A stretch of 64,000 nucleotides of DNA from a virus (Duplodnaviria; Caudoviricetes): the IMG/VR virus record IMGVR_UViG_3300045015_000053; one strand, 5' to 3'. Positions 6,716-32,148 of this stretch are shown piece by piece. The notes below the pieces were generated by a model. It made no database searches. It saw only the letters and a program-made list of their open reading frames with translations, and was not told the origin of the DNA. The first letter of the stretch is position 1, and each line of letters starts with the position of its first letter. Made by a program: the position numbers and the translations under genes.

Positions 6716-8800
6716 ATGCCGCCGCTGATCAAAGTCGGGGACCAGCCGACGCTGGTTCCCACTTCCAAGTACCCATACGCCACGTTCCCGTTCGCGAACT
6801 TCAACCCGGTCCAATCCGCCGTCTTCGAGTTTTACGACAAGGACTGCAACGCGGTCATCGCCGCCGCGACCAGTGCCGGCAAGACGGTCGTCGGCGAGAT
6901 GTTCGCGAACCACGAAATCCAAGTCCGCAAAGGTACGTTCATGTACCTTTGCCCGCTCCGCGCACTCGCCCAAGAGAAGATCGATGACTGGACCGATCCG
7001 AGCCACCCGTTCAGCAAGAAGAAAGTCTCGATCTGCACCGGCGACTACCGCCTGACCCCCGAACGGAAGAAGGAACTGGCGGAAGCCGATGTCATCATCA
7101 TGACATCCGAGATGCTCAACCACCGCTGCCGCAACTTCAACAGCGAGGGCAACGCCTTCCTGAAGAACATTGGCACCATCGTCATTGACGAGAGCCATCT
7201 GCTCACCGTTCCGGGTCGCGGCGACCACCTCGAAGTCGGCCTGATGAAGCTGACGAAGATGAACCCGAACTGCCGCATCATCATGCTCTCGGCGACCATG
7301 CCCAACGTGGACGAAATCGCCGAGTGGGTCAGTTACAGCCTCACCGGGCGGGAAACCTACGTTCTTGTTTCCAAGTACCGCCCCTGCCCGCTCACGACCC
7401 ACTTCGAGAACTACGACGACAGCGGGGACTACTACGAGCAGAAGGAAGAGTCCAAGATCGCGCGGGCGATGGAGATCGTCAAATACTACCCCAACGACAA
7501 GTTCCTGATCTTCTGCCACACGAAACGAACCGGCGAAAACATGTCGGAAGAGTTGAAGAGTGCCGGCATCAAGAACGAGTTCCACAACGCGGACTTGGAC
7601 AAGGAAAAGCGGATCTCGCTCGAAAAGCGGTTCAAGACCGACCCGGACCTGAAGGTCGTTGTCGCCACGTCCACGCTGGCGTGGGGCGTGAACCTGCCGA
7701 GCCGTCGCGTGATCGTCTTGGGCGTCCACCGTGGCATCCAAGAGGTGCCGACCTACGACATCTTCCAGATGATCGGTCGTGCCGGGCGTCCGGCTTACGA
7801 CCCGGCCGGTGACGCCTACATCCTCGTTCCGCTTTCTCAAGGGGCCGCTTGGCGGGCCAAGCTCAAAGCACAGCAACGCATCGACAGTCAGCTTCTGGAG
7901 AACGTCGGCGGGGTTCACAAGACGATGGCGTTCCACGTCGTGTCGGAGATCTTCCACGGCGGCATCACCAACATGGACGAGATGCGGAAGTGGTACGAGC
8001 GGACGCTCGCCCACTTCCAGAGCAACGAACTCGATGACGTGGTCGCGGACGGCGTGATCAAGTCGCTCAAGGACTGTTACGCCATCAACGTCGAAGACGA
8101 CGAGTTCACCGTCTCGACCATCGGCAAGATCAGCAGCCTGTTCTACTTCAGCCCGTTCGACGTGAGCCACCTGAACAAGAACTTCGGCAAGATGTTCAAA
8201 AGCGGCCACGAAACCGACGACCTTCGTGTCGCGCTCGCTCTCGGTGACATCGACAGCAACCGCCTCGGCTTCATTAGTCGAGCCGAACGGGAAGAGATCA
8301 GTGCATTCGAGCGTCGTCTCTCGGCCATTCCCGACCTGTTCAAAGAGACAAAGGCGAAGGACGGCGAAGAGGGCAAAGAGAAGCAACGCACGCTCAAGGA
8401 CGGGTGCGTCAAGGCCGCGTACCTCTATTACAGCCTTTTGACCGGGAGTCCGACCAAGATGCTGGCCGGTGCTTTGCGGGGGCTGAAGTTCGACGCTCCC
8501 CGCGTACTTCAGGTCGTTCAGGCACTGGACGCTCTGGGTGGCAAGAAGTGGGGCAAGGGTGACTTCCTCAGCGGGCTGGAGAAACGTATCACCTACGGCG
8601 TGCCGCCGCATCTCGTCGGTCTGGTAGGGTTGCCGAACCTCGGAGCGGTTCGCGCGAACAATCTCTACAAGGCCGGCATCAAGACGATGGACGATCTCGC
8701 CGCCGCGAAGCCTGAAGACGTGGTCAAGATCACCAAGATGAGTCGCAAGATGGTTGACGAACTCATCGAAGGTGCCAGCGTCAAGTCGATGATGGAGTGA
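6716..8800 (+). CDS. Ski2/Hel308-like SF2 DExH helicase with C-terminal HhH
   Basis: AAATSAGKT, DESH, LSAT, TSTLAWGVNLPS, QMIGRAGRP and GAVRANNLYKAGI (HhH). Confidence 0.92.
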   Translation: MPPLIKVGDQPTLVPTSKYPYATFPFANFNPVQSAVFEFYDKDCNAVIAAATSAGKTVVGEMFANHEIQVRKGTFMYLCPLRALAQEKIDDWTDPSHPFSKKKVSICTGDYRLTPERKKELAEADVIIMTSEMLNHRCRNFNSEGNAFLKNIGTIVIDESHLLTVPGRGDHLEVGLMKLTKMNPNCRIIMLSATMPNVDEIAEWVSYSLTGRETYVLVSKYRPCPLTTHFENYDDSGDYYEQKEESKIARAMEIVKYYPNDKFLIFCHTKRTGENMSEELKSAGIKNEFHNADLDKEKRISLEKRFKTDPDLKVVVATSTLAWGVNLPSRRVIVLGVHRGIQEVPTYDIFQMIGRAGRPAYDPAGDAYILVPLSQGAAWRAKLKAQQRIDSQLLENVGGVHKTMAFHVVSEIFHGGITNMDEMRKWYERTLAHFQSNELDDVVADGVIKSLKDCYAINVEDDEFTVSTIGKISSLFYFSPFDVSHLNKNFGKMFKSGHETDDLRVALALGDIDSNRLGFISRAEREEISAFERRLSAIPDLFKETKAKDGEEGKEKQRTLKDGCVKAAYLYYSLLTGSPTKMLAGALRGLKFDAPRVLQVVQALDALGGKKWGKGDFLSGLEKRITYGVPPHLVGLVGLPNLGAVRANNLYKAGIKTMDDLAAAKPEDVVKITKMSRKMVDELIEGASVKSMME

Positions 8801-10958
8801 CCCACGGCCAGCCCGCAAGTGTGATAACGTCCGACTGCGGGCAGCAGTGTGCGTCGTGTTCGCTCGGAAAGACCTCGCTGTTGAAGTTCCACTTCTCGGC
8901 GAGGTCTTTCCGCATGTAGGTGGCCTCGATTGTGTCGGGGGTCATAGTGTCCCCGATCCACCCGTAGCCGCCGCAGTTGTTCGGGTGCGCATGAACGAGC
9001 TTGAACCTGTTGTTGATTGTTTGCAGGTATCGAATTTTGTCGTTCATGTTCTTCTTGTTCATGATCCCGTGCAACTCGATCATGATCACCTCGAACCGCG
9101 ACAGGATCTTCGGATCGGTAATTCTCAGTGTCTCCCACTCTGAATTTTCGATGTCGATTTTCAACCACATCCGTTTGCCATTCGCCGTCTTCGAGTGATC
9201 CAGCATCGTCTGGATCGAGTGTCCATCGACACCGATCCCGATTGGGAAGAACTCCGCGCCGGCCGGGATTTCTTCGGGTATGGCCTTAGAGTCGAACATT
9301 TTGATTTTGGCCCGACTCAGTTTTGCGAACTCTTTCTCGAAGTCGGAGTTGTTCCCGATTCCGGCCGAGATCAGGTAATCGACGTTCTGGATGTCCAGAT
9401 CAGGCACGACGTAGCCGCCGTCGTTCTTCGAGCCGATCCTCTTTTTTAGCACCGGGCATTCGTACACGACGAGTTCTTTCAGAAGTCTGTGGCCTCTGTT
9501 TTGTCCTTTACGCAGCATCGCTTGCATCCCGTGCGTGACCTGAACGGGAACTTCGGGGAGGATTTCGTTGACCGCACGTTTGACACCCGGACAGCGTCCC
9601 CAGTTGTAGTCGTCAAGGATGACCACGCCGTTTTCTACCATCTTCGGCCAGACCCATAGAAGTGCGTCCCGCGTTGATTGGTAGGTGTCGAAATCCAAGT
9701 GCGCGAAGGAGAAGGTCAGGTTGTCGAGATCTTTTGCCGTGTCGGGGAACCGGCCCGGATGTATCGAGACTTTGCACCCTGCCAAGAATTCGGTGACTTC
9801 GCTGAGGTTGCTCGCGAATTCGCCCTGCTTGTGTCCGGCGGGTTCTTGGTCGTCTTCAGGAATGCCCATCTCGAACCCGTCGAACATGTAGAGCGTTTTA
9901 TTCGGAGCCGCGTAGGAGATAAGTTTGGCTGTGCCGCCGCGATAACACCCGCATTCAACCATGTCCCCCGGCAAGTTAGCGGTAGCAATCACAGAGTCTT
10001 GAATTACTTTCAGTCGGCCGGGGTCAACGAGGCTGCGGTCAGCAGTAATTTCGGACGGCATTTCGGCTATGTCCAAGATTGCGCCGGCGGCATCGATTGC
10101 GGCCGTTTTGAGCATTGCCATGCACATGGGAATGTTGCTGTGGTATTGATCCACGACCGGCAATGCACATTTCCTGTCAGATTCGCCGCCCACGACGATG
10201 CTTTTCCAACACCCGTTGCTCTTGCAACACGGCAACAGCCCTTGTGTGCTGAGGCTGATTTGGGTCGGGTAGCCGATCCAACTGATCGGTTCCCTGCCGC
10301 CGATCATGCAGATGTACGGTTTGCTGAATCCGGCCATGAAGTGGCCCAACGCTGTTATGCCGCCGATTCCGAAAGTAGCTCCGTGGCACAGTCGTAGCAG
10401 TTCCCTGAGAGTTGTTTGGCCGATGAGGTTGATCGTGTCGTGTAGGGGCGGGTGGTTGTCTTTGGCCGCGCCGACTTGTACGAACCTGATCCGGTCCTTG
10501 TAGGTGTCCACTACGGACTGGTACAGTTCGGTGCCGGCCCATTTTGCGGGGTAATCGTCCTTGTACCCCGCGTTGATTATTGCGTATGGTCCGTATTCTC
10601 CTGTCTTCTCGTTGAAAACCGAGAAGGTCTTTTCGGCAGCAGACAGGTAGAAGTGCGGCCTCGAAACTTGGAGCCTGAGCGGTAGCCCCAGAATATCGCC
10701 TAGGTGGTCGCAAAAGGCCGATCCGAAGTGAAACGGGATGTGTGACTCGTTAATGCGGTCGTACCGCATGTCGATGTATTCACACTCCGCAGCACTCATC
10801 GGAGTTACCCACGGGTTGTTCGCGAACAGTTCGTTGTGGTTGGTCTGCATGTTCGTTAAGAACTTGCCGGGGAACTGTCGGTGCAAGCTTTCCAGAGCCA
10901 TCGTAACTATGGCTACGTCGCCCGGACACAGACCGTGATTCAACAACAACTTTCTCAT
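8781..10958 (-). CDS. three-domain fusion: GT9-like glycosyltransferase + TylF/MycF O-methyltransferase + FkbM-like methyltransferase
   Basis: N-terminal PGD, GQTTLRELL, KPYI and a CCxxxGCW...C...C cluster. Middle GDMVECGCYRGG, FDGF, AHLDFDTY, ILDDY. C-terminal RIGSKNDGGY, SAGIG, LKIDIE, IELH, HPNNC. Confidence 0.82.
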   Translation of the reverse strand: MRKLLLNHGLCPGDVAIVTMALESLHRQFPGKFLTNMQTNHNELFANNPWVTPMSAAECEYIDMRYDRINESHIPFHFGSAFCDHLGDILGLPLRLQVSRPHFYLSAAEKTFSVFNEKTGEYGPYAIINAGYKDDYPAKWAGTELYQSVVDTYKDRIRFVQVGAAKDNHPPLHDTINLIGQTTLRELLRLCHGATFGIGGITALGHFMAGFSKPYICMIGGREPISWIGYPTQISLSTQGLLPCCKSNGCWKSIVVGGESDRKCALPVVDQYHSNIPMCMAMLKTAAIDAAGAILDIAEMPSEITADRSLVDPGRLKVIQDSVIATANLPGDMVECGCYRGGTAKLISYAAPNKTLYMFDGFEMGIPEDDQEPAGHKQGEFASNLSEVTEFLAGCKVSIHPGRFPDTAKDLDNLTFSFAHLDFDTYQSTRDALLWVWPKMVENGVVILDDYNWGRCPGVKRAVNEILPEVPVQVTHGMQAMLRKGQNRGHRLLKELVVYECPVLKKRIGSKNDGGYVVPDLDIQNVDYLISAGIGNNSDFEKEFAKLSRAKIKMFDSKAIPEEIPAGAEFFPIGIGVDGHSIQTMLDHSKTANGKRMWLKIDIENSEWETLRITDPKILSRFEVIMIELHGIMNKKNMNDKIRYLQTINNRFKLVHAHPNNCGGYGWIGDTMTPDTIEATYMRKDLAEKWNFNSEVFPSEHDAHCCPQSDVITLAGWPWVTPSST

Positions 10959-11623
10959 TTCTTGCACCCGCACGGCTTACTCAGCCGACCGATCATCCTT
11001 TTCTTCGGAGTGATTTTGCTTTGAAAACCTTGCATAGCTATGGCTTCTACGACGACACACGGGTTACACGGGACAATTGCTGTTTGGTTTTCTTCCGTAC
11101 CGGAGAAGCCCGGTGGGTTGTTGCAGCAGCAACCTTCTGTACATGTGTTGTCGCGATTTTCCCAGAACCCTCCTAGCCATTCCCACACACACTCTCCAGT
11201 ACAAGTGACAACACCGCTACTGCTGGTGGAGCTTGGACTCACGCTCGAAGACGGGCTGCTGCTTGGGCTGCTCGACGGACTCGAACTCGGACTGGAACTC
11301 GGACTCGAAGACGGGCTGCTGCTTGGGCTACTCGACGGACTCGAAGACGAGCTTGGGCTTTTTGAGCTTGACGCACTTGAACTGCTCGACGGACTCGAAG
11401 ACGAGCTTGGGCTGCTTGAGCTTGACGCACTCGAACTGCTCGAAGGTGAAGAACTGCTCGAAGGTGAAGAACTGCTCGAACTCGAAGGTGAAGAGGACGA
11501 AGACGATGAAGAACTCGAACTCGAAGGTGAAGAGGACGAAGACGAGGACGAAGACGATGAAGACGACGATCCGCACGCCGCCAAAGCTTCTTCGTATGTT
11601 TTGTATGGACCAATGAGTGGCAT
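10955..11623 (-). CDS. poly-Ser/Pro linker protein with a Cys/Trp-rich C-terminal module
   Basis: AAGGA RBS plus ATG at 11623; about 120-residue S/P tract; CTGECVWEWLGGFW...CCC...PC module; the stop overlaps the GT-MTase ATG. Confidence 0.8.
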   Translation of the reverse strand: MPLIGPYKTYEEALAACGSSSSSSSSSSSSSSPSSSSSSSSSSSSPSSSSSSSPSSSSSPSSSSSASSSSSPSSSSSPSSSSSASSSKSPSSSSSPSSSPSSSPSSSPSSSPSSSPSSSPSSSPSSSVSPSSTSSSGVVTCTGECVWEWLGGFWENRDNTCTEGCCCNNPPGFSGTEENQTAIVPCNPCVVVEAIAMQGFQSKITPKKRMIGRLSKPCGCKK

Positions 11624-11631
11624 GTTTTCCT

Positions 11632-12129
11632 TTATGCGTTGTCTGTCTTGAAACACACGGTTGCGGCAACATCACCTTCAAACCGTCCCGGCGCGGGAGG
11701 GACCATACAGAAACATCCAACGGCCGGATTGAAACATGTGCTGCTGACATTTGACCAAGATCCGTCTCCCCAAACCCAGTTGCAAACGCCGGGGCATCCG
11801 CCACCACCACTACTCGAACTCGAAGAGGAAGAAGAACTGCTCGCACTTGAACTCGAAGAAGGACTACTCGAACTCGAAGGCGAACTACTCTAGCTACTTG
11901 ACGAACTCGATCCACAGACGTAGGCGTTCTTCTCTGCGCAACTGTTGAAGTACACGACTGTGTTCGTTTCTTGGCAACAGTACCAGCCGACGCAGCAACA
12001 GTTACAGCACCGCGCCCAACAGGAATCCGCACCGCTCATAGCCATAGTGCTGTTCATTGCAGCTTTGGCTCGTGCGGCGCGTTGTACCCTTTTGCGTAGG
12101 AACTCGGTGGCAATGATCGTCTGTCGCAT
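11632..12129 (-). pseudogene. second poly-Ser/Cys-rich protein, interrupted by a single in-frame TAG (codon 80, 11890-11892)
   Basis: The frame continues after the TAG with more Ser codons and a paralogous CPGVCNWVWGDGSW...CFC...P..C module, ending at TAA 11632-11634. Confidence 0.72.
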
Positions 12130-12407
12130 TATGCCTTTTCGCCGAAGAAATCTGCCGGGTACTCGATCCTGACGGTGCCGTTGCCCGAAGTCGGGTGGCC
12201 CTTGTCGTCTTCGACCCACCAGCGGACCTGTTTCACTTCGATTCCCAGTTGGTCCATGTGACACTTGTCGCCGGGGAACACCGGCATGTGGTACTCTTTG
12301 CCTTGAATCAGGCAGGCAACTTTGCACTGCCCCTTCTTCCGGTCGTAGAGCATGCAGTTGTTGCAGATCTTTTCGATCACCTTCAGTTCCTTCTTCTTGT
12401 CTTCCAT
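12129..12407 (-). CDS. hypothetical Cys-containing protein
   Basis: 92 aa with CNNC..C..C; the stop overlaps the next ATG (TAATG). Confidence 0.65.
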   Translation of the reverse strand: MEDKKKELKVIEKICNNCMLYDRKKGQCKVACLIQGKEYHMPVFPGDKCHMDQLGIEVKQVRWWVEDDKGHPTSGNGTVRIEYPADFFGEKA

Positions 12408-13119: not shown

Positions 13120-13200
13120 GTGAGCGAACACGTTATTCGCAAGGGCGACCAACACTTTGTTGAGAAGGGTTGGGGGGAGGATGGGTATGCCAACTACTGA
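13120..13200 (+). pseudogene. 26-aa stub: displaced original 5' end of the cupin gene
   Basis: GGGGGAG RBS plus GTG; MSEHVIRKGDQHFVEKGWGEDGYANY*; FVEKGWG duplicates the cupin motif FVKKGWG at 13826-13846. Confidence 0.6.
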
Positions 13201-14161
13201 TCCTCAAAAACGCCGATCATACGAGAAAAAGTACGAACAGTCGCCCAAAGCCAAAGCGACTCGGAAAAAGTACAAAGCCACCGTCGAAGGAGTGGCGACA
13301 AGACGCAAAACGTATTTGAAGGCTTACCATAAGGCCAAGAAAGAAACAGACTATTACGTTTGCGGAGCCGGTCGCCTTAGTTCTCTGAGAACTTCTGCAA
13401 AAGAACGCGGCTTGGAATTCAGTCTTACGGTCGAGGAGCTTAGGAATTGGTGGCAGTCCTCGGAAGATGTCTGCGAATACTGTCGTATGACAGTAGATGA
13501 TTTTCGTAAGTTCAGAGATTACGTTCGGAGCTACGAAGGAAATGATTGGGATATTGTCTCCTTCAAAAGCTTGGTCGATAACAGAACTTGCGTTGATCAG
13601 TTGACTATCGACCGCATCGATAGTGGTTCTGGCTATTGTTTGGGGAATTTGGCAAAGTGCTGTTGGTTTTGCAACCTTGTGAAGCACCGTTTTTTGACGG
13701 CCAAGCACATGGCCCAAATCGCTCCTGACATTATTGCCAAACTCAAGTCGGCGATAGATAGGACTGAACAGAAAGTTACTTCTGATTCCGCTTGGAGTGG
13801 GCGACTGGGTTATTTCCAGCAGACTTTTGTCAAGAAAGGTTGGGGTTCGGAGCGATGGCTTTGGAACAACGATCTGTACTGCGGCAAGTACCTCTGGTTC
13901 GAGAAGGACAAGTGTTGCAGTTGGCACTACCACGCGATCAAAGACGAAGTCCTGCTTCTGGATTCGGGATCGATCAAGGTCACATATTCCGAGCAGGACG
14001 ACATCGGTTTGGCGAAGGAAGTCATTCTCAAGCCGGGCGATGCGTTTCACGTCCCGGTCGGCCTTAGACACAGGATGTTTGCCCTGGAAGACAGCGGCAT
14101 CTACGAGTTTTCGACGCACCACGAGGACTCAGATTCGATCCGCATCCAACGGGGAAATTGA
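13181..14161 (+). CDS. HNH/His-Me-type endonuclease fused in frame to a cupin (mannose-6-P isomerase-like) domain
   Basis: AT-richer N-terminal part with CEYC, TIDRIDSGSGY, NLAKCCWFCN. C-terminal KGWGSERW, CSWHYHAIKDE, PGDAFHVPVGLRHRM. Confidence 0.8.
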   Translation: MGMPTTDPQKRRSYEKKYEQSPKAKATRKKYKATVEGVATRRKTYLKAYHKAKKETDYYVCGAGRLSSLRTSAKERGLEFSLTVEELRNWWQSSEDVCEYCRMTVDDFRKFRDYVRSYEGNDWDIVSFKSLVDNRTCVDQLTIDRIDSGSGYCLGNLAKCCWFCNLVKHRFLTAKHMAQIAPDIIAKLKSAIDRTEQKVTSDSAWSGRLGYFQQTFVKKGWGSERWLWNNDLYCGKYLWFEKDKCCSWHYHAIKDEVLLLDSGSIKVTYSEQDDIGLAKEVILKPGDAFHVPVGLRHRMFALEDSGIYEFSTHHEDSDSIRIQRGN

Positions 14162-14422: not shown

Positions 14423-14693
14423 AGTGACCCGCCTTCGGGTCGTAACTCCACAGATTGTTTTCTTCTTCTTTGATGCCGTTGGCTTTGGCGGTCTTCAGGA
14501 CCAGTTCCTGAAGTTCCTTTTCAGCCGCGATCACGTCGTGTGCCAGCATCATTTGCTTGGCCGTAATGTGACCCAGTCTCAACTTCAGGTCATTGGCCTT
14601 TTTCTCGGCCGCGTTGATCTCGTCAACTACTCGCGGGTGGATCTCCACTGGCAGGTGGATGACTTTCGGCGGGAGGGGTTTCTTTTTGCTCAT
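14409..14693 (-). CDS. hypothetical coiled-coil protein
   Basis: 94 aa with a heptad-like central region. Confidence 0.6.
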   Translation of the reverse strand: MSKKKPLPPKVIHLPVEIHPRVVDEINAAEKKANDLKLRLGHITAKQMMLAHDVIAAEKELQELVLKTAKANGIKEEENNLWSYDPKAGHFKRR

Positions 14694-15360
14694 TCAATAC
14701 ATGAGTCCGCTTCTCGCGTTCTTGTTTCCCGATTTTATCCCGCAACTTGTCCAGACCGCGTTCTGTCAGCACCATGAACTTCCACTGCCGCGCCAGACAG
14801 TATTCGTTACACGCCGCCCATTTCGCCTTGTTTCGGCCGATCTCGGTCTGACTAGAGGGTTTGACCTCCCAGATCTCGACCGTGCCGTCCGTGAACGTGA
14901 TACGGATGTCCGGGTAATAGTCGTGTTGCAGTCCGTGGAAGAAGTAGCGAACAGGGAACGGTTCCTCTTCGTATCTGTGGACGATGTCCCAGTGTTCGAG
15001 TAGTTCGTAGACTTCGCACTCCATGCCGGATCGGTAGTGCATGTCTTTGCCGTTCTTGTTGCTGCTCATGTAGCCGTCGCGGAAGTGCGGCTTCTTGGTG
15101 TTCATCTTGCCTTCTTTGGTGGAGATGTCTTTCCACACCAAAGCGCGACTCATGCCCTTCTTCGGCATCTTGTCGTAGGGGTGTTTGGCCTTGAAGTGGG
15201 CCTTCAGGTCGCGCACCGGGGCTTTGCACCGCTCCAGCGGACACAAGACGTACTCGCGGCCCTCTTCGTGGTTCTGGACGATGTGTTCTTTGAACGCCTC
15301 GAACGTGTCGAGCCGCTCGCCGCAGACGTAGCACTGGTAGACTCGTTTGTCGTTGCTCAT
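14623..15360 (-). CDS. C2H2 zinc fingers fused to a TnsA-N / T4 gp4 head-completion-like nuclease
   Basis: CYVC..F..H..H and CP..C..H..H fingers, then YRSGMECEVY, YYPDI, IWEVKP, NKAKWAA, FMVLTE. Confidence 0.78.
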   Translation of the reverse strand: MSNDKRVYQCYVCGERLDTFEAFKEHIVQNHEEGREYVLCPLERCKAPVRDLKAHFKAKHPYDKMPKKGMSRALVWKDISTKEGKMNTKKPHFRDGYMSSNKNGKDMHYRSGMECEVYELLEHWDIVHRYEEEPFPVRYFFHGLQHDYYPDIRITFTDGTVEIWEVKPSSQTEIGRNKAKWAACNEYCLARQWKFMVLTERGLDKLRDKIGKQEREKRTHVLNEQKETPPAESHPPASGDPPASS

Positions 15361-15824
15361 TTGCCTCTTTGCTTTTCGGATCGCAGCGGGCGGCGGTCGT
15401 CCTCTTGATCCGCATCGGACGAAACGATCATCACCGGCTTGGGCTTGGTTTTCTTGCCGTTCATCTTCTTGATCAACAGGGACTCGCACTTATCTTTGCT
15501 CACGATCTTCAGCCCCTTCAGGTCTTTCTTGGAGAAGAGGTTTTCGGTGATCTTGCCGGTGAGTGCGTCGTACAGGTTAATCGCGCCGAACCGGGCCTCT
15601 TTGAGATTCGCATCGTCCTTGTTCGGGTGTTTCATTCTCGCGAACGTGAGGCGACTCTCTTCCGAGCAGCCGTAGAGTTGATTGTCTTTGGTGAAGTACA
15701 TGATGAGGTTCTGACCGTCCAGCATCATGTTGATCTTCGCGGATGAGTCCTCTTCGCGCATGCAGCAGTTGTCCCAGATGTCCATCAGGTGACGAAAGTC
15801 GGAAAAAGCGGGTGACTGTCTCAA
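15357..15824 (-). CDS. hypothetical protein
   Basis: GAGGG RBS plus TTG; coupled to the nuclease gene. Confidence 0.6.
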   Translation of the reverse strand: MRQSPAFSDFRHLMDIWDNCCMREEDSSAKINMMLDGQNLIMYFTKDNQLYGCSEESRLTFARMKHPNKDDANLKEARFGAINLYDALTGKITENLFSKKDLKGLKIVSKDKCESLLIKKMNGKKTKPKPVMIVSSDADQEDDRRPLRSEKQRGK

Positions 15825-19406: not shown

Positions 19407-20180
19407 TTATCGACCGTTAAGCCACTCCCTCAGATACTGACGCTCCTCATCCGTGATTTTGTAATTCGACTGTTTCGGTGGCATTCTGCCTGCTTCCACC
19501 TCTGACAACATGGACTTGAACGGTGCGTCTGGGTTCAACACATTGTGCTGGTTGAAAATGACGACATCGCCTTTCGACCCCGGCCCAGTGTGACACGACA
19601 TGCAGTTACGCGCGAGTGCGTTAATAGACGGCTGTGCCAGCGGGCTACGCGGGTTCGGGCGAGAAGCGAGCGGCGGCTGCGGGTTGCCGGTATTGGTCGG
19701 AGCCGGGTAGATCGCCATCGGCGGTCCATCGTCTTCGCCGTTGGCGGCAGCGTCTTGACGACGCATTTCTTCGAGCAGCAATTTAGCCAGTTCCCTGAGC
19801 TTGTCGTTGCTGTTGAAGGCACCGGGGAAGCTCGGCTGAGGCTGTGCCGGCTGCTGGTACGGGCCGTGGTATTGCGGCATGCCCGGCATGGTCGGCTGAC
19901 CGCCGTATGAGTGATAGCCGAACCCCGGCTGAACACCTACTGGCGGAACGTACTGGTATGTGAAGGCCGGGACCACAATCGGCACAGCGACAGGAACGGC
20001 CACAGGGGTGATGATCTCGGTCGCGACCACATCGTGGTGCGGCTTGGTAACGACGACTGGGGCAGGGGTGCAGACGGTGTTGCCACGCACCACCACGCCA
20101 TTTCTGCATTGCGCGTTCACAGTGGAAGTGAACGCTAACATCAGGACTACGCCTGACAGCATTCCGATGAGTGTTCTCAT
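19407..20180 (-). CDS. secreted protein with a C-terminal cytochrome c domain
   Basis: Signal peptide; Pro/Val-rich linker; CMSCH heme motif followed by GRMPP (axial Met). Confidence 0.75.
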   Translation of the reverse strand: MRTLIGMLSGVVLMLAFTSTVNAQCRNGVVVRGNTVCTPAPVVVTKPHHDVVATEIITPVAVPVAVPIVVPAFTYQYVPPVGVQPGFGYHSYGGQPTMPGMPQYHGPYQQPAQPQPSFPGAFNSNDKLRELAKLLLEEMRRQDAAANGEDDGPPMAIYPAPTNTGNPQPPLASRPNPRSPLAQPSINALARNCMSCHTGPGSKGDVVIFNQHNVLNPDAPFKSMLSEVEAGRMPPKQSNYKITDEERQYLREWLNGR

Positions 20181-20209
20181 TTGTTCTCCTTCATAGGGGG
20201 ACACCCTAT

Positions 20210-22629: not shown

Positions 22630-22672
22630 TCACCTTTTCTAATAGAGTGTCACCTTTTCTAATAGAGTGTCA
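22630..22672. repeat. perfect 20-bp intergenic tandem duplication
   Basis: TCACCTTTTCTAATAGAGTG x2 plus TCA; covers the stop and RBS region on the - strand. Confidence 0.9.
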
Positions 22673-23500
22673 ACCGCTGACAACTGGTACGTCGTCTTCG
22701 GGATTCGAGTCTTGTGGATCGTCGTATGCCGACTGGATGGCAAATGCGTCCGGGTGCATCTGGTTGAAGTGTTCCCGACGCAGGTATGCGTACCCGCCGA
22801 TGCCGAAGTTTGTCCCCCACGAGTTCTGGATCTTGATCGTCCAGCCGTATCGCGGGTGCTGCTTGATGCCGACGCCGAGGATGCAGTGTCCCCCACCGCC
22901 GCTCCTGTAAAGAGGGCAGACGCCGTTGCTGTCTACGTTGGCAAAATCGTCGCCAACCATGATTCCGAGCGGGCAGCAGAAGCCGAGGTTGATGGCTTGG
23001 CAGATCTCGTCAAACGAGTTGCACTTGTAAGCCATGAACAGCTTGAAGCGGGCCGCTTGGTTGTACGCCTCTTGCGGGAACTGATTCTGGAACATCGCCC
23101 CACGCGGCAGAACCCCGTCTGGACAAGCTCCGTACCTCTTCAGCGACATCAAAGAACTGGAAATCATCGCGCCGGCATCGCGCCCGCCGTTGATCAGTCC
23201 GTAAATGAAGTAAGGGGTGAAGTTCTGAGTCGGGTTACCCTGCTGCTTCCAAACGAGTTCCATGCCGGACGCCGCGCCGTGGCCGACGCACGAAGACGTG
23301 CTGCCCTGGTTCAGAATCCTGTTGTTGTACACCGGGGCGAGGTCGATTTCCCTCAACGCCGCTTGCGCGAATACTTGCGAGCCGAAGTTGGCGAAGTCGT
23401 GGTTGTTGTCCGATGGGATGCAACCAAGAACGCGGTACTGCCCGTCGAATTTGATCGACGGCAGACGGCTGATCGATTTTGGTCCGATTCCGAATACCAT
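22670..23500 (-). CDS. papain-like cysteine peptidase (C1 family)
   Basis: QGSTSSCVGHG (Gln/Cys), GGHCIL (His), QNSWG (Asn). Confidence 0.9.
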   Translation of the reverse strand: MVFGIGPKSISRLPSIKFDGQYRVLGCIPSDNNHDFANFGSQVFAQAALREIDLAPVYNNRILNQGSTSSCVGHGAASGMELVWKQQGNPTQNFTPYFIYGLINGGRDAGAMISSSLMSLKRYGACPDGVLPRGAMFQNQFPQEAYNQAARFKLFMAYKCNSFDEICQAINLGFCCPLGIMVGDDFANVDSNGVCPLYRSGGGGHCILGVGIKQHPRYGWTIKIQNSWGTNFGIGGYAYLRREHFNQMHPDAFAIQSAYDDPQDSNPEDDVPVVSG

Positions 23501-24318: not shown

Positions 24319-24477
24319 GTGTGCGGGTCGGTAATCCTGCACACCAACCGTCGATGTGTTTTCGGCGGGAGGCGTCACGGCTGAATGGCTGTGTTCGTCG
24401 TTGGTTCTCCTTGTCAGTTGCCGCCGATGGGCAACTGGAACGACCGGCGGGATGGCTCGCCGGTCGTTCTTTTTTTT
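24319..24477 (+). ncRNA. candidate structured small RNA or attenuator leader ending in an intrinsic terminator
   Basis: Five hairpins in about 155 nt, the last a 12-bp perfect stem plus T8; no credible ORF. Confidence 0.5.
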
Positions 24478-24492
24478 GACTATTATCTAGGT

Positions 24493-25815
24493 ATGGATAA
24501 AGTCTCAGAGATAATCGACAGGTTCATTCGCGCCGACCTCGCCAAGACCTGCACAGTATCCGTCGTCGGCGACGTGATGATTGACGAATACTACGACGTT
24601 TCGGTGGATCGGGTTTCCCCCGAATTTCCAATCAAGATCATGAAATCGCGGCACGACCGTTGCAGCCGGGTTCCCGGCGGCGCGGCGAACGTCGCGATGC
24701 AATTCACCAAGTTCAACACGCGGGTATATCTGACCGGCATCACAAGCCAGATTATGCCTTTGATGCCTCAGCGGTTCGTCAAGGAACACAGTCCCGTCGA
24801 TTGCGGTCTGCCGATCCCGATCAAGAAGAGGTTTTACCAGGGCGACTTCCCAGTGGCCCGTTGGGACGTGGAGGAAAAGTTCTACGGCATGGGTGCCGAC
24901 CACATCGGTTGGAAGTTCGATGATTTTGAACTCAAAGAATCGGATGTCACGGTTTTCAGCGATTACGACAAAGGGTTGTTTCACTCAGGTTGGCAAAAGA
25001 AGTTCCTGTCTGATCGCATTTCCATTGTGGACCCAAAGGGAGACTTGAGTCGGTGGTACGGCTGCACCGTTCTCAAACCCAACTCCGTCGAAGCCAAGCA
25101 ACTCACGGGCGAGGACGATTGGAAGCGACAGGCCGACAAGCTCCGAACGATTGTCGGGTGCCGGGACGTGGTGATTACGCAGGGAGACAAGGGGGTGTGC
25201 GGACTGACGCCCGAAGGCTATTTCGAGTACCAGCCGCCGCACAAAGTCGGAGCGAACAGTGTAATTGGGGCGGGGGACTGCTTCATCGCTTTCTTGGCGA
25301 TGGCGATAGCTCACGGGATGACCACGGCCGAGGCTTCGACGGTTGCGTTCGAGGCCGGCGCGATCTACGTTCAAAGAAAACACAACCGGCCGTTAAAGCC
25401 GGCCGAACTGTTGTCGAAACGTTCTGGCGAGCAGATCGTCTTTACAAATGGCTGTTTCGACATACTCCACGCCGGACACATCAGCACCCTCGAATTCGCT
25501 AAAAATCAGGGTGATATTCTTGTTGTCGGGGTGAATTCCGACGAGAGCATTCGACGCCTGAAAGGTGAAAAACGTCCCGTCAACAAACTCGAAGATCGGA
25601 TGAAAGTCTTGTCGGCGATGAAGTATGTGGACTGTGTGATCCCGTTCGACGCGGACACACCGCTCGAACTGATCAAATACGTCCGGCCGGATATTGTGGT
25701 CAAGGGAGGCGATTACAAACCGGAAGACGTGGTCGGAAATGAACTGGCCGAGGTGATTATCGCGCCGGTCGTGAGCGGGTTGTCCACGACCGGCTTGATC
25801 AGCAAGCTCACTTAG
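24493..25815 (+). CDS. hldE: bifunctional heptose-7-phosphate kinase / heptose-1-phosphate adenylyltransferase
   Basis: VVGDVMIDEY, RVSPE, PGGAANVA, SDYDKG, GAGDCF, then FTNGCFDILHAGH, VGVNSDESIRRLKG, VKGGDY, STT. Confidence 0.92.
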   Translation: MDKVSEIIDRFIRADLAKTCTVSVVGDVMIDEYYDVSVDRVSPEFPIKIMKSRHDRCSRVPGGAANVAMQFTKFNTRVYLTGITSQIMPLMPQRFVKEHSPVDCGLPIPIKKRFYQGDFPVARWDVEEKFYGMGADHIGWKFDDFELKESDVTVFSDYDKGLFHSGWQKKFLSDRISIVDPKGDLSRWYGCTVLKPNSVEAKQLTGEDDWKRQADKLRTIVGCRDVVITQGDKGVCGLTPEGYFEYQPPHKVGANSVIGAGDCFIAFLAMAIAHGMTTAEASTVAFEAGAIYVQRKHNRPLKPAELLSKRSGEQIVFTNGCFDILHAGHISTLEFAKNQGDILVVGVNSDESIRRLKGEKRPVNKLEDRMKVLSAMKYVDCVIPFDADTPLELIKYVRPDIVVKGGDYKPEDVVGNELAEVIIAPVVSGLSTTGLISKLT

Positions 25816-26137
25816 AGTGGTCGTGGTCGCAACACTTGCCGGCCTTCTTGCTTTTGCCGGGACACTTATCGCAGACGCAGTTCTCGCACTTACACTCGGT
25901 ACAGCCGCAGTCTTTGCACCCGTCGCACTTGACGGCGACGGCCGCTTTCACCTTACCTGCGCACTTGGGGCATTTGCAGTTCTCGCACTTGCAGTCCTTG
26001 CAGTCGCACGGGTCGCAGTTGCAGCCTGCCTTGACGCCTAAGACCTTGTTGTGGACGACCGGGCAGTATTTCACCGCCGCGAAGGTGCCACCGACACCGA
26101 GGGCTAGTCCGAGGACTAGGATGAATAGGGTTCTCAT
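25808..26137 (-). CDS. exported or membrane-anchored metallothionein-like protein
   Basis: Hydrophobic N-terminus; two tandem 9-Cys CxC/CxxC modules plus CCDHDH (21 Cys). Confidence 0.7.
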   Translation of the reverse strand: MRTLFILVLGLALGVGGTFAAVKYCPVVHNKVLGVKAGCNCDPCDCKDCKCENCKCPKCAGKVKAAVAVKCDGCKDCGCTECKCENCVCDKCPGKSKKAGKCCDHDHSK

Positions 26138-28193: not shown

Positions 28194-30323
28194 ATGAACG
28201 AAGTTCCTACCAGCAACAAGGCCGTGTCTTTGCTGGACCGGGTAGCCGGTAAGTACGACAAGCGGCAGTTCCAGAAGCTCAACGAAGAGATGAGCTTCGG
28301 CGAATATCTGGAGATGGTCCAGAAGAACCCCCGCATCGTGCGTAACGCACACCAGCGTGTCTTCGACATGATCATGTCGAAGGGGTCGTACACCTTCGAG
28401 CGTTACCGCAAGACCCTGACCCACTACAACTTCTTCGATGACCCGGAAATCCCGATCTTCGACCTCGAAGAACCGCTCGATGAACTGGTGAAGTTCATCA
28501 AGGGTGCGGCCGGCGGGTTCGGCACCGAGAAGCGTGTTCTGCTCCTCCACGGCCCGGTAGGGTCGGCCAAGTCCACGATCCTCCGCTTGCTCAAGCGGGG
28601 TCTGGAGAAGTACAGCCGCACCGACGAGGGCGCGTGGTACACCTTCAAGTGGGTCAACCTGCCGACCGGCTCGGACGGGATCTACACCCACACCGAAGAC
28701 GAATGCCCGATGCACGAGGAACCCCTCAAGCTGATGTCGCTTGAGCGGAACCCCGGCGAAACCAAGTCCATGCGCGAAGCGTTCGTGGACGAACTCAACG
28801 TCACGCTGTTGGAGAGCGTGCCGGAAGAGAAACGGACCACACAGTACACGCTGCGGGTCAAGGGCGAACTGAACCCCCGCTGCAAGAAGTTCATGAGCGA
28901 ACTGCTGAAGCGGTACGGCGGCGACTGGAAGCAGGTGGTCGAGAAGCACATCCGCGTGGTCCGCAAGGTTCACAGCGAGGCCGACCGCGTGGGCATCGCG
29001 ACGTTCCAGCCGAAGGACGAGAAGAACCAAGACAGCACGGAACTGACGGGCGACATCAACTTCGCCAAGATCCCGCACTTCGGTTCGGACAGTGATCCTC
29101 GCGCCTTTAACTTCGACGGAGAGTTCTGCGTCGGCAACCGGGGCATTGTCGAGTTCATCGAAATGCTCAAGTTGGAGACGGCGTTCCTCTACGACCTCCT
29201 CGGAGCGTCCCAAGAGCAGAACATCAAGCCCAAGAAGTTCAGTCAGATCGGCGTGGACGAGATCATCATCGGCCACACCAATCAAGCCGATTTCGACAAG
29301 CTCAAGAACAACCAGTTCATGGAAGCCCTCCGCGACCGGACGGTGAAGATCGACGTTCCCTACGTCACCCGCTGGAAGCACGAGATCAAGGTGCTGGAGC
29401 AGGACTACGGTTCCGGCAAGGTGCGTCAGCACGTTGCGCCACACACCCTCGAAATCGCCGCCCTGTGGGGCGTCCTGACGCGGTTGCAGGACGACAAGGA
29501 CGGCAAGATCGACCTGATCCAGAAGGCCGAACTGTACGACGGGAAGCTGCTTCCGGGGTGGACCGAGGACTCGGTCAAAGAACACATCATGAAGCACCCC
29601 GGCGAGGGCATGACGGGCGGCGTGAGCGTGCGGTACATCCAAGACAAGATCTCGAACTGCTTGTCGGCCCGCCACGACTACATCAACTTCTTCATGGTCT
29701 TGAACGAGATCAAGGAAGGGTTGAGCAACCACAGCCTGATCACTCACAAGGACCAGATCAGCCGCTACCTGACGTGCGTGGAACTCTCCATCAAGAAGCT
29801 GGACGAGATCCTGAAGGCCGAGGTGCAACGCGCACTCGTCGGCGACGAGGACGCAATCGTCCGGCTGTGCGCCAACTACATCGACAACGTGATGGCGTAC
29901 ATGTCGAAGGCGAAGGTGAAAAACAAGATCACCGGCCGCGACGAGCCGCCGGACGAGCGTCTGATGCGGAACATCGAGAGCCGCATCAAGATCCCCGATC
30001 AGGGGGCCGACGACTTCCGCCGGACCATCGCCGCGTTCATCGGCGATCTGGCCCACAAGAAGCAAGAGTTCAAGTGGGACAGCAATCCGCTCCTCAAGAA
30101 AGCCCTCGAAGCGAAGCTCTACGAGGACACCAAAGACCACATCAAGCTGTCGGCCCTCAACGTGAGCGGTGCGACCGTGGTGCAGCCCGACCTGCAAGAA
30201 AAGATCGACGCGATCAAGACGCGGTTGATCAAACAGTACGGCTACAACGAGCAGTCGGCCAGTGACGTACTCGACTACGTCGGCTCGATCTTCGCTCGCG
30301 GCGACCTCGCCGAGAAGGACTGA
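28194..30323 (+). CDS. prkA: PrkA/YeaG AAA+ family (annotated serine kinase)
   Basis: AHQRVFDMI, LHGPVGSAKST, PKDEKNQDSTELTGD, GNRGIVEFIEMLK, EALRDR. Confidence 0.93.
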   Translation: MNEVPTSNKAVSLLDRVAGKYDKRQFQKLNEEMSFGEYLEMVQKNPRIVRNAHQRVFDMIMSKGSYTFERYRKTLTHYNFFDDPEIPIFDLEEPLDELVKFIKGAAGGFGTEKRVLLLHGPVGSAKSTILRLLKRGLEKYSRTDEGAWYTFKWVNLPTGSDGIYTHTEDECPMHEEPLKLMSLERNPGETKSMREAFVDELNVTLLESVPEEKRTTQYTLRVKGELNPRCKKFMSELLKRYGGDWKQVVEKHIRVVRKVHSEADRVGIATFQPKDEKNQDSTELTGDINFAKIPHFGSDSDPRAFNFDGEFCVGNRGIVEFIEMLKLETAFLYDLLGASQEQNIKPKKFSQIGVDEIIIGHTNQADFDKLKNNQFMEALRDRTVKIDVPYVTRWKHEIKVLEQDYGSGKVRQHVAPHTLEIAALWGVLTRLQDDKDGKIDLIQKAELYDGKLLPGWTEDSVKEHIMKHPGEGMTGGVSVRYIQDKISNCLSARHDYINFFMVLNEIKEGLSNHSLITHKDQISRYLTCVELSIKKLDEILKAEVQRALVGDEDAIVRLCANYIDNVMAYMSKAKVKNKITGRDEPPDERLMRNIESRIKIPDQGADDFRRTIAAFIGDLAHKKQEFKWDSNPLLKKALEAKLYEDTKDHIKLSALNVSGATVVQPDLQEKIDAIKTRLIKQYGYNEQSASDVLDYVGSIFARGDLAEKD

Positions 30324-30331
30324 TCGCGGAA

Positions 30332-30359
30332 AGTCCCCCGTCAACTTCGACGGGGGACT
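30332..30359 (+). terminator. hairpin after prkA
   Basis: 11-bp stem AGTCCCCCGTC/GACGGGGGACT; the T tract is displaced by about 9 nt. Confidence 0.55.
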
Positions 30360-30388
30360 CCCTACGGGTTTTTACGAGAGGTACACGA

Positions 30389-30634
30389 ATGAAAAAGTAC
30401 ATCTGCGACATTACCGGCAAAGAAGTTTCGGGTTCAGATTACGTCGAAGTTCGGACATACAATTCAAACTCTCGTGACCGACACGGCGACCTGATTTCAT
30501 TCAAAGTGGAAGGATTCGACAGGGAACTCGAACCCGAACTGGAACAACTCTATCGGGACGCGGATAGGGCCGCTGACAAGGCCAAAACCGAGTTCATCGA
30601 AAAGGCACTCGCCCGGCTCCGCAAGGGCAAGTGA
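30389..30634 (+). CDS. hypothetical protein
   Basis: GAGG RBS, 81 aa. Confidence 0.65.
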   Translation: MKKYICDITGKEVSGSDYVEVRTYNSNSRDRHGDLISFKVEGFDRELEPELEQLYRDADRAADKAKTEFIEKALARLRKGK

Positions 30635-30644
30635 CGAGGAATCA

Positions 30645-30887: not shown

Positions 30888-30897
30888 GGAGAAAACA

Positions 30898-32124: not shown

Positions 32125-32148
32125 GTCGCTCGAAATAGGGGACAGAAC

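What the first reader, a model, noticed from the sequence alone, without database searches (positions are those of the whole stretch)
8781..12129. Coupled operon of poly-Ser substrates and a glycosyltransferase-double-methyltransferase: candidate virion O-glycosylation system
Seen: two paralogous proteins (Cys-rich head, long Ser/Pro tract, Cys/Trp module) are translationally coupled to a 725-aa GT9-like + TylF + FkbM-like fusion. The GT domain ends in a CCxxxGCW...C...C cluster. Known: TibC/Aah heptosyltransferases use ADP-heptose to glycosylate Ser residues of proteins and bind iron through Cys; TylF and FkbM methylate sugars; HldE (24493) makes ADP-heptose. Inference: the phage decorates its own mucin-like Ser tracts with methylated (heptose?) sugars, as a virion shield or adhesin.
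Basis: partly seen in the sequence, partly recalled or inferred. Interest (0 to 1): 0.68.

Follow-up and report, generated by a model that had tools for sequence, protein, structure and literature searches.

The report
Phage poly-serine proteins with dedicated sugar-transferase
A huge uncultured phage encodes two proteins made largely of serine directly in front of an enzyme that joins a heptosyltransferase-type sugar transferase to two sugar-type methyltransferases; this pairing recurs in many phages, so the phage probably sugar-coats its own poly-serine proteins, though no sugar has been seen.

Summary
On the minus strand, four genes are joined by overlapping or closely spaced stops and starts:
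- a 92-aa CxxC protein;
- poly-Ser protein 1, broken by an in-frame TAG at codon 80;
- poly-Ser protein 2, 222 aa with 100 Ser;
- a 725-aa fusion enzyme.

The fusion's first 300 residues fold (pLDDT 97) as a GT9 heptosyltransferase, with Z 19-24 to 3tov, WaaF, TibC and WaaC. They carry the catalytic Asp, the phosphate Lys and a conserved four-Cys cluster. TylF and FkbM methyltransferase domains follow.

The GT belongs to a large subfamily, with 1128 clusters at E<1e-30. In 49 dereplicated phage loci, 24 have a Ser tract upstream on the same strand and 3 downstream. These tracts often sit right after the major head or tape-measure gene.

ADP-heptose genes (HldE, rfaE domain II, heptose epimerase) lie beside the GT in at least 8 loci, and an HldE homologue lies 13 kb away here.

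Best reading: O-glycosylation of the Ser tracts, probably O-heptosylation, followed by O-methylation. Nothing shows that this window's two small Cys-rich proteins are in the virion.

This scan has noted the same theme on other DNA at least eight times. I found no publication describing it.

The parts
12129..12407 (-). First gene of the operon: a 92-aa CxxC protein (MEDKKKELKVIEKICNNC...). Its TAA stop overlaps the ATG of the next gene as TAATG.
   Evidence: Homologue in GT locus L044 (39% identity, E 2e-21). Positional orthologue in the 595-kb phage LR756511.1.
11632..12129 (-). Poly-Ser protein 1 (P0003 when TAG is read through). It has a Cys-rich head (aa 1-72), a Ser/Pro tract and a C-terminal Cys/Trp module. 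It is interrupted by TAG at codon 80.
   Evidence: The TAG is identical in the independent assembly L085.
11890..11892 (-). In-frame TAG stop inside the Ser tract of poly-Ser protein 1.
10955..11623 (-). Poly-Ser protein 2 (P0002, 222 aa). It has a conserved 17-aa head, a ~115-aa Ser/Pro tract (100 Ser in the whole protein), a Cys/Trp module and a basic tail ending CGCKK. An AGGA-type ribosome-binding site lies upstream.
   Evidence: Orthologue in L001 with 18/20 identical N-terminal residues and a 37%-identical module.
10059..10958 (-). GT9-fold glycosyltransferase domain (aa 1-300) of the fusion protein P0001. Conserved residues: G13-D14, K133, D135, K139, T182, R185, G220-R222-E223-P224.
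10122..10229 (-). Conserved four-Cys cluster (C244/C245, C250-W251, C264, C279). It is a probable metal site in the C-lobe of the GT domain.
9567..10016 (-). TylF-type (macrocin/NovP-like) sugar O-methyltransferase domain, aa 315-464. The SAM motif (GDMVECGCYRGG) and the Asp motifs (LDFDTYQST, ILDDY) are conserved.
9030..9374 (-). FkbM-type methyltransferase domain, aa 529-643. The protein continues to aa 725 and its stop is at 8781.
24385..25815 (+). HldE-like bifunctional heptose-7-P kinase / heptose-1-P adenylyltransferase. It is the likely source of ADP-heptose and lies 13 kb from the operon on the other strand.

Best explanation
This is a phage-encoded protein O-glycosylation cassette.

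Proposed steps:
1. The N-terminal GT9-fold domain of the 725-aa enzyme transfers a sugar to the serine hydroxyls of the poly-Ser tracts. The substrates are the proteins translated just before it in the same operon. The sugar is most likely heptose from ADP-heptose, made with the phage's own HldE homologue.
2. The fused TylF and FkbM domains then O-methylate hydroxyl groups of that sugar.
3. The product is a mucin-like, methyl-heptose-coated stalk that links a small head to a Cys/Trp-rich terminal module.

Shown:
- gene order and start/stop coupling;
- the GT9 fold with the catalytic Asp and phosphate-binding Lys;
- intact methyltransferase motifs;
- protein-level selection for Ser;
- recurrent physical linkage of this GT subfamily with upstream Ser-tract genes, methyltransferases and ADP-heptose genes in many phages.

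Inferred:
- that Ser is the acceptor;
- that heptose is the sugar;
- that the methyl groups go on the sugar;
- that the products end up on the virion.
For: Fold and residues:
- The model has pLDDT 97.2.
- Its top 30 Foldseek hits are all GT9.
- By VIA-align, Z is 24.3, 22.4, 21.1 and 19.9 for 3tov, WaaF, TibC and WaaC. Other folds score <=12.
- The family profile hits WaaC at E 1.9e-5, with K139 aligned to WaaC K192.
- D14 lies at the position of TibC D110, by the offset of the superposition (model 1-300 against TibC 96-392; TibC residues from PMC4358343).
- 44 of 52 long family members score on PF01075 at E<=1e-5.

Linkage to Ser tracts:
- The ATGA overlap is present in the window.
- The same coupling with a poly-Ser ORF occurs in the 70%- and 59%-identical relatives L001 and L003, whose contigs break inside the Ser tract.
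- Among 49 GT clusters dereplicated at 80% identity from IMG/VR, 24 have a same-strand tract of >=70% Ser upstream. The tract ends a median 1.2 kb before the GT domain.
- Only 3 clusters have one downstream, with similar amounts of DNA scanned on each side (binomial p 1.5e-4).

Structural context in relatives:
- L065 reads portal, major head protein (phrog_334, E 9e-81), poly-Ser protein, MT+GT9 fusion, four Methyltransf_24 genes, a radical SAM gene and an epimerase.
- L008 and L092 read tape measure, Ser-tract protein, GT, then a GT9/FkbM protein.

Donor:
- A full HldE-like gene and a heptose-6-epimerase-like gene (TIGR02197, E 2.5e-36) lie in the GT operon of L092 and L093.
- Stand-alone rfaE-domain-II-like adenylyltransferases (108-174 bits on TIGR02199, far above the TagD model) lie within 6 kb of the GT in six more clusters.
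- The window's HldE homologue scores E 3e-86.

Protein rather than lipid acceptor:
- 6 of 52 family members are fused to Erv1/Alr sulfhydryl oxidases. This fits Cys-rich protein clients.

Methyltransferases:
- The TylF domain aligns to NovP and MycF with its motifs intact.
Against: - No glycan, glycoprotein or enzyme activity has been observed.
- About half of the related loci show no Ser tract within 6 kb.
- One of the two putative substrates here carries a premature TAG. Part of the cassette may therefore be decaying.
- The Asp of the WaaC 'DTG' sugar-binding motif is not conserved in this subfamily (GIGGIT in the alignment). The sugar could therefore differ from heptose.
- The window's HldE is only 30-31% identical to the HldE genes in L092 and L093, and it is not in the operon.
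- GmhA and GmhB were not found among the window ORFs I scanned.
- The operon lies among replication and metabolic genes, not structural genes. Virion localisation of these two proteins is not supported here.
Confidence: 0.62

Rival explanations
1. The enzyme builds a methylated glycan on a non-protein acceptor, such as host LPS core, a lipid carrier, a small molecule or DNA. On this view the poly-Ser genes are merely neighbours, for example flexible linkers of fibre proteins that happen to lie in the same late operons.
For: All biochemically characterised GT9 enzymes other than the BAHT group act on LPS cores (established knowledge). The model resembles WaaF/WaaC as closely as TibC. About half of the related loci lack a nearby Ser tract. 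Fusion partners include further GTs such as Mannosyl_trans3 that could extend a polysaccharide.
Against: The upstream/downstream asymmetry is strong (24 against 3). Start/stop overlap with the Ser-tract gene occurs in the window, L001, L003 and L092. Ser tracts have no other obvious reason to track this enzyme across unrelated phage modules (head, tail, non-structural). Erv1/Alr fusions point to protein clients. Known phage DNA glycosyltransferases are not GT9 (own knowledge).
Confidence: 0.15
2. The Ser tracts are glycosylated as proposed, but in this phage the products are not virion parts. They could be small secreted or intracellular Cys-rich glycoproteins that act during infection, for example as surface-masking or adhesive factors, or as decoys.
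For: The operon lies between a helicase and nucleotide-metabolism genes, with no structural gene in the 64-kb window. P0002 and P0003 are short (222 and 165 aa) and have no Pfam or PHROG virion domain. At the syntenic site, the 595-kb relative LR756511.1 has a Cys-rich protein with a basic tail but no Ser tract and no GT.
Against: The same Cys/Trp terminal module ends larger proteins in tail-type operons of other phages: L008, L014, L018 and L067-L080. P0002 has no signal peptide that I could recognise by eye. Huge phages scatter structural genes (own knowledge).
Confidence: 0.3
3. The cassette is a decaying remnant in this genome. The TAG in poly-Ser protein 1 marks loss of function, and the enzyme may no longer have a working client.
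For: The in-frame TAG is fixed in two independent assemblies. TAG is used as an ordinary stop by 9 of 69 long ORFs, and nothing suggests recoding.
Against: P0002 and the 725-aa enzyme are intact, with all catalytic motifs. P0001 is identical on 8 contigs from several samples. The 70%-identical relative keeps the P0002 orthologue with a nearly identical N-terminus. The truncated 79-aa head still ends in six Ser and may be functional on its own.
Confidence: 0.1

Closest known systems
Bacterial autotransporter heptosyltransferases (BAHT: TibC, AAH; PDB 4RAP/4RB4; PMC4358343)
   Same: Both have the GT9 GT-B fold (Z 21.1, rmsd 2.6 A over 255 residues). The catalytic Asp sits at the equivalent N-terminal position. 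The phosphate-binding Lys is conserved. Four conserved Cys lie in the C-lobe, where TibC has its iron finger. TibC is a cytoplasmic enzyme that puts many heptoses on Ser of a co-encoded protein, using ADP-heptose.
   Different: This enzyme lacks the N-terminal beta-barrel: its GT domain starts at residue 1 and aligns to TibC 96-392. Profile-to-sequence similarity to TibC is not significant (E 0.3-0.5). The Cys spacing differs (C-x5-C-x13-C-x14-C against C-x2-C-x15-C-x11-C). The presumed acceptor is a disordered poly-Ser tract rather than a beta-helix repeat. The enzyme is fused to two methyltransferases and is phage-borne.
LPS core heptosyltransferases WaaC/WaaF and GT9 3TOV
   Same: These are the best sequence-profile and structure matches (WaaC E 1.9e-5; 3tov Z 24.3; WaaF Z 22.4). 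They share the GD and Lys motifs and an ADP-heptose donor.
   Different: Their acceptor is a lipid-linked Kdo/heptose core. They have no Cys cluster, no methyltransferase fusion and no linkage to Ser-tract genes. The WaaC DTG Asp is replaced in this subfamily.
Mycobacteriophage virion glycosylation (Freeman et al. 2023, Cell Host Microbe 31:1216, as cited in PMC12619734; the paper itself was not held)
   Same: Phage-encoded glycosyltransferases decorate the phage's own capsid and tail-tube subunits at C-terminal extensions, giving a glycan shield.
   Different: As far as I know, those enzymes are not GT9 and the sites are not long poly-Ser tracts. The host phylum also differs (Actinobacteria against probable Planctomycetota). 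I could not check details.
Chlorovirus PBCV-1 A064R (two glycosyltransferase domains plus a methyltransferase domain acting on the capsid glycan; own knowledge, not checked here)
   Same: A virus-encoded multidomain enzyme combines glycosyl transfer and sugar O-methylation to decorate a virus protein.
   Different: It is a eukaryotic virus making an N-linked glycan with rhamnosyltransferase domains of other folds. There is no poly-Ser.
Serine-rich repeat adhesins of Gram-positive cocci (GspB/Fap1 with GtfA/GtfB; own knowledge)
   Same: Long Ser-rich tracts are densely O-glycosylated in the cytoplasm by dedicated, co-encoded enzymes.
   Different: Those systems use a GT4 GtfA/B pair, GlcNAc as the first sugar, accessory SecA2/Y2 export and LPXTG anchoring. 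None of these is present here.

Membership tests
Glycosyltransferase family 9 (Pfam PF01075 / CAZy GT9) | GT-B fold that superposes on solved GT9 enzymes over both lobes | tested here: met
   Model pLDDT 97.2. Z 24.3 for 3tov, 22.4 for WaaF, 21.1 for TibC and 19.9 for WaaC, covering residues 1-300. The next fold scores <=12.
Glycosyltransferase family 9 (Pfam PF01075 / CAZy GT9) | Score above the Pfam gathering threshold | tested here: not met
   P0001 itself scores 16.1 bits against a cut-off of 22. However, 44 of 52 subfamily members match PF01075 at E<=1e-5 (best 6e-26), and the L065 homologue scores 33.2 bits. P0001 is therefore a divergent member.
Glycosyltransferase family 9 (Pfam PF01075 / CAZy GT9) | N-terminal Gly-Asp catalytic base and a conserved Lys that binds the beta-phosphate | tested here: met
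   G13-D14 and K139 are invariant in 86 sequences. K139 aligns to WaaC K192. D14 corresponds to TibC D110 by the superposition offset.
Glycosyltransferase family 9 (Pfam PF01075 / CAZy GT9) | Uses ADP-heptose as donor | not testable with these tools
   Only indirect evidence: HldE, rfaE-domain-II and heptose-epimerase homologues lie beside the GT in at least 8 loci, and an HldE homologue lies in the window.
BAHT (TibC/AAH) protein O-heptosyltransferases | N-terminal beta-barrel domain preceding the catalytic domain | tested here: not met
   The GT domain starts at residue 1 and aligns to TibC 96-392 only. Some relatives instead carry a Cys-rich N-terminal extension.
BAHT (TibC/AAH) protein O-heptosyltransferases | Four-Cys iron finger inserted in the C-lobe | tested here: inconclusive
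   Four conserved Cys lie in the C-lobe just before the last helix. The spacing differs from TibC C339/342/358/370. The profile alignment spans TibC 276-386 but only at E 0.3.
BAHT (TibC/AAH) protein O-heptosyltransferases | Acts on Ser of a co-encoded protein substrate | not testable with these tools
   Supported only by gene linkage.
TylF/NovP sugar O-methyltransferases (PF05711) | Pfam score above threshold, with the SAM-binding and Asp metal/catalytic motifs | tested here: met
   59.9 bits against a cut-off of 23. NovP hits at E 3e-11, and GDxVExGxxRGG, lDxDxYxST and DDY are all conserved.
FkbM methyltransferases (PF05050) | Pfam score above threshold | tested here: met
   24.9 bits for the whole protein and 27.8 bits for the isolated C-terminal part, against a cut-off of 22.7. 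The catalytic residues were not examined.
Serine-rich repeat protein / GtfAB / accessory Sec systems | GT4 GtfA-GtfB pair, SecA2/SecY2, signal peptide and LPXTG on the substrate | tested here: not met
   None of these domains was found in the operon or in the window ORFs I scanned. The substrates lack both motifs.

The most novel reading that the evidence does not exclude
A widespread and so far undescribed virus system exists in which a dedicated GT9 subfamily poly-heptosylates genetically encoded poly-serine 'tags'. The subfamily has a four-Cys metal site and is often fused to methyltransferases, further GTs or Erv1 sulfhydryl oxidases. The tags sit on phage head, tail and accessory proteins, and the result is methylated mucin-like brushes on virus particles. 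In this huge, probably planctomycete-infecting phage, the system has been moved onto small Cys/Trp-module proteins. It is supplied by the phage's own HldE.
Probability: 0.45. Interest if true: 0.8.

Novelty: new variant of a known kind. Interest (0 to 1): 0.62.

Why it matters
Protein O-heptosylation is known only from a few enterobacterial adhesins. Virion glycosylation of phages has been shown experimentally only in mycobacteriophages.

If this GT9 subfamily really coats poly-Ser tracts, then hundreds of phage lineages make mucin-like, methylated glycan brushes on their particles. The subfamily has 1128 clusters at E<1e-30 and 115 IMG/VR loci. Such brushes would bear on adsorption, on sticking to mucus or exopolysaccharide, on immune recognition of therapeutic phages, and on particle stability.

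The poly-Ser tract plus enzyme would also be a simple, portable tag-and-writer pair for glyco-engineering.

The claim is directly testable with two genes in E. coli, which already makes ADP-heptose.

Tried and rejected
- **Single-sequence fold.** The single-sequence fold of the GT domain was useless (pLDDT 36.6). Only the 86-row alignment gave a usable model.
- **Complex prediction.** Complex prediction with the GT domain and P0002 residues 1-60 returned 'no answer' (score 0.02). This is neither support nor evidence against binding.
- **Ser-tract proteins of relatives.** Pfam and PHROGs gave no real family for the Ser-tract proteins of ten related loci. Only low-complexity noise and one Laminin_G_3 hit appeared.
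- **Cys/Trp module.** It found nothing in the ESM Atlas feature search or in the word-indexed protein search. Ser-rich ORFs are probably under-called, so this says little.
- **Whole genome.** No whole genome is held for the window, and the record behind L085 is not searchable. I could not look for more Ser-tract or structural genes elsewhere in the ~476-kb phage.
- **TAG recoding, considered and rejected.** TAG ends 9 of 69 long ORFs, no other gene needs read-through, and there is no tRNA in the window.
- **Antisense artefact, considered and rejected.** I asked whether the poly-Ser ORFs are an antisense artefact of the E/D/L-rich plus-strand ORF 11040-11651. The minus frame has much lower entropy (0.97 against 2.69 bits), uses all six Ser codons, has a ribosome-binding site and an ATGA overlap, and has a conserved head and module in L001. 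By contrast, the Ser-rich plus-strand ORF 36628-37356 is such an artefact, of an acidic protein on the minus strand.
- **Direct phage database match.** tblastn of P0001 against 50,697 GenBank phages found only an M. avium mtfB methyltransferase match.
- **TibC Cys alignment.** I tried to see the TibC Cys alignment residue by residue, but TibC ranked below the printed alignments.
- **Literature.** Four searches found no paper on poly-Ser with GT9 in phages. Freeman et al. 2023 is not held.
Full report
**What is there**

On the minus strand of window 8781-12407 lie four genes that are tightly joined.

- The first gene (12129-12407) encodes a 92-aa CxxC protein. Its TAA stop overlaps the next ATG as TAATG.
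It has a Cys-rich head (CWARCCNCCCVGWYCC...), a Ser/Pro tract and a C-terminal Cys/Trp module. It is cut by an in-frame TAG at codon 80 (11890-11892).
- Eleven bases after its TAA, behind an AGGA-type site, starts paralogue 2 (10955-11623, P0002, 222 aa). It reads MPLIGPYKTYEEALAACG, then about 115 residues of S/P, then a Cys/Trp module, then a basic tail ending CGCKK.
- Its TGA overlaps the ATG of the 725-aa enzyme P0001 (8781-10958) as ATGA.
- P0001 ends 20 nt inside the convergent DEAD-box helicase gene.

**Are the poly-Ser ORFs real**

P0002 has 100 Ser encoded by all six codons, 55 TCN and 45 AGY. These two codon groups cannot interconvert by single substitutions, so Ser is selected at the protein level. 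The tract has an entropy of 0.97 bits, against 2.69 bits for the E/D/L/G-rich ORF on the opposite strand.

The two C-terminal modules are 40% identical over about 54 aa (E 5e-7). The orthologue in the 70%-identical relative L001 keeps 18 of the first 20 residues and a 37%-identical module.

A second Ser-rich ORF in the window (36628-37356, +) is the antisense shadow of an acidic protein. These two are therefore the only poly-Ser genes in the 64 kb.

**The TAG**

An independent JGI assembly (L085, a 140-kb contig) is 100% identical over 1659 nt, including the TAG. It is therefore not an assembly slip. TAG ends 9 of 69 long ORFs, no other gene needs read-through, and there is no tRNA in the window.

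I read it as a genuine nonsense codon. Either a 79-aa head ending in six Ser is made, or this copy is decaying.

**The enzyme**

- Pfam finds TylF (aa 315-464, E 3e-16) and FkbM (aa 529-643, just above threshold).
- For the first 300 residues Pfam gives only a sub-threshold GT9 hit (16.1 bits against a cut-off of 22).
- Homologues were found at 29-70% identity, several of them scoring on PF01075.
- A 14-sequence profile hits WaaC at E 1.9e-5 and WaaF at 1.6e-3, but TibC only at 0.5.
- An exhaustive profile search found 8691 clusters at E<1e-3 and 1128 at E<1e-30. Lengths run from 278 to 1350 aa, so this is a large subfamily with many fusions.
- With an 86-row alignment the domain folds at pLDDT 97.2.
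- The top 30 Foldseek hits are all GT9.
- VIA-align gives 3tov Z 24.3, WaaF 22.4, TibC 21.1 (rmsd 2.6 A over 255 residues; model 1-300 against TibC 96-392) and WaaC 19.9. The next fold is at Z<=12.

Invariant residues include G13-D14, K133/D135/K139, T182, R185, the GGREP motif at 220-224, and C250-W251, C264 and C279. C244 is >=90% conserved. K139 aligns to WaaC K192. D14 falls on TibC D110, the catalytic base, by the superposition offset.

Of 52 long members, 44 hit PF01075 at E<=1e-5. Their fusion partners are Mannosyl_trans3 (15), Methyltransf_24 (6), Erv1/Alr sulfhydryl oxidase (6) and FkbM (2).

The TylF domain aligns to NovP with its SAM and Asp motifs intact.

**Is it TibC-like**

Only in part. 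The beta-barrel of TibC is absent. The four conserved Cys lie in the same general part of the C-lobe as the TibC iron finger (C339/342/358/370). Their spacing differs, however, and I had no coordinates to test the geometry. The profile alignment across this region is not significant (E 0.3).

**Linkage to Ser tracts elsewhere**

- The two closest relatives on short contigs (L001, L003) have a poly-Ser ORF overlapping the GT start, and their contigs end inside Ser tracts.
- A prophage copy (L004) fuses a 300-aa domain to the GT directly after the tape measure.
- A scan of IMG/VR gave 115 phage loci, of which 80 were fetched.
- After dereplication at 80% identity there are 49 clusters. Of these, 24 have a tract of >=70% Ser over 20 aa, on the same strand and upstream. 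In 20 of the 24 the tract ends within 1.7 kb of the GT domain (median 1.2 kb).
- Only 3 clusters have such a tract downstream, with 283 kb scanned upstream and 237 kb downstream (binomial p 1.5e-4).
- In one recurrent type (L027, L030, L043, L048, L051, L057, L062, L065), a conserved ~190-aa domain carries 100-200 almost pure Ser ending in ESIG. It follows portal, scaffold-like and major head genes (phrog_156; phrog_334, E 9e-81). After it come an MT+GT9 fusion, four Methyltransf_24 genes, a radical SAM/SPASM gene and an NAD epimerase.
- In others (L008, L014, L018, L019, L092), the Ser-tract protein follows the tape measure and ends in a Cys/Trp module like the window's. L067-L080 carry the same module, but without strong Ser tracts.

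**The donor**

The window's ORF 24385-25815 has HldE as its best NCBIfam match (E 3e-86; domain II scores 176 bits against a cut-off of 181.5).

In L092 and L093 (GT 40% identical), the operon runs GT, a large FkbM/MT24 protein, a small ORF, an HldE-like gene, then a gene whose best match is ADP-glyceromanno-heptose 6-epimerase (E 2.5e-36).

Six further IMG/VR clusters have a stand-alone adenylyltransferase within 6 kb of the GT. Its best model by far is rfaE domain II: 71 bits in the L072 cluster and 108-174 bits in the other five. The TagD model scores 28-69 bits.

This makes ADP-heptose the most likely donor. I put the sub-claim at about 0.6. The missing WaaC-type DTG Asp and the absence of GmhA/GmhB among the ORFs I scanned are caveats.

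**Host and element**

- The window carries RecA, ThyX, HldE, the PrkA/DUF444/SpoVR trio, ClpP, a split DnaE, DHH, DnaJ and other genes.
- P0001 occurs on contigs of up to 476 kb.
- The neighbouring helicase is 54% identical to one in the 595-kb uncultured phage LR756511.1.
- The nearest GT relatives in bacterial genomes are in Gemmataceae and other Planctomycetota MAGs. A planctomycete host is therefore likely.
- In LR756511.1 the syntenic site has the small CxxC protein and a 248-aa Cys-rich protein with a basic tail, but neither a Ser tract nor the GT. This is a single case of the tract and the enzyme being absent together.

**Verdict**

The GT9 call, the methyltransferases, the Cys cluster, the coupling and HldE all stand. 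The paralogue description needs the two corrections given above.

The mechanism of poly-Ser O-glycosylation, probably heptosylation followed by methylation, is well supported by comparative genomics but remains unproven. 'Virion' is shown only for relatives.

The complex prediction gave no answer.

The scan's own archive holds at least eight earlier notes on the same theme in other genomes. My searches found no publication.

Noticed in passing
window 11890-11892 (-): An in-frame TAG lies inside the Ser tract of poly-Ser protein 1. It is identical in an independent metagenome assembly. It could be a pseudogene, a deliberately short product or low-level read-through; this is unresolved.
   Followed up: partly
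window 35196-36710 (+) and 42136-44991 (+): DNA polymerase III alpha (DnaE) is split into a PHP/N-terminal part and a finger/HhH part. The parts lie 5.4 kb apart, with unrelated genes between them, including a very acidic 425-aa protein on the other strand.
   Followed up: no
window 28194-33768 (+): A complete PrkA / DUF444 (YeaH) / SpoVR trio is encoded by the phage. In bacteria this is a stress and sporulation-associated operon.
   Followed up: no
window 14623-15489 (-): A protein with a C2H2/Di19-type zinc finger is fused to a TnsA-like endonuclease N-terminal domain. It is probably a homing or mobile endonuclease.
   Followed up: no
window 25808-26137 (-): A 109-aa protein has a signal-peptide-like N-terminus followed by metallothionein-like CxC/CxxC repeats. 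It lies immediately after the HldE-like gene.
   Followed up: no
window 13157-14161 (+): A 334-aa protein has a Cys-rich HNH-like middle part and a C-terminal cupin domain (sub-threshold Cupin_2). It is conserved next to the operon in L085. A cupin could be a sugar isomerase or epimerase.
   Followed up: no
GT subfamily members P0028-P0163 (alignment A4): Six of 52 long members of the GT subfamily are fused to an Erv1/Alr sulfhydryl oxidase domain. This suggests coupled disulfide formation and glycosylation of Cys-rich client proteins. One member carries an intein with a LAGLIDADG endonuclease.
   Followed up: partly
L095 (LR756511.1 366558-380561), locus 8014-9039 (-): The 595-kb huge-phage relative keeps the small CxxC protein and has a 248-aa Cys-rich protein with a basic tail at the syntenic site. 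It lacks both the Ser tracts and the GT-methyltransferase gene.
   Followed up: partly
L001 1-468 (+): In the 70%-identical relative, the ORF upstream of the P0002 orthologue is a PKD-like domain flanked by two pure poly-Ser tracts. The first poly-Ser gene of the cassette is therefore swapped between relatives.
   Followed up: no
window 19407-20204 (-) and 22670-23500 (-): The phage encodes a protein with a cytochrome c (cbb3-type) domain and a papain-family cysteine protease homologue.
   Followed up: no
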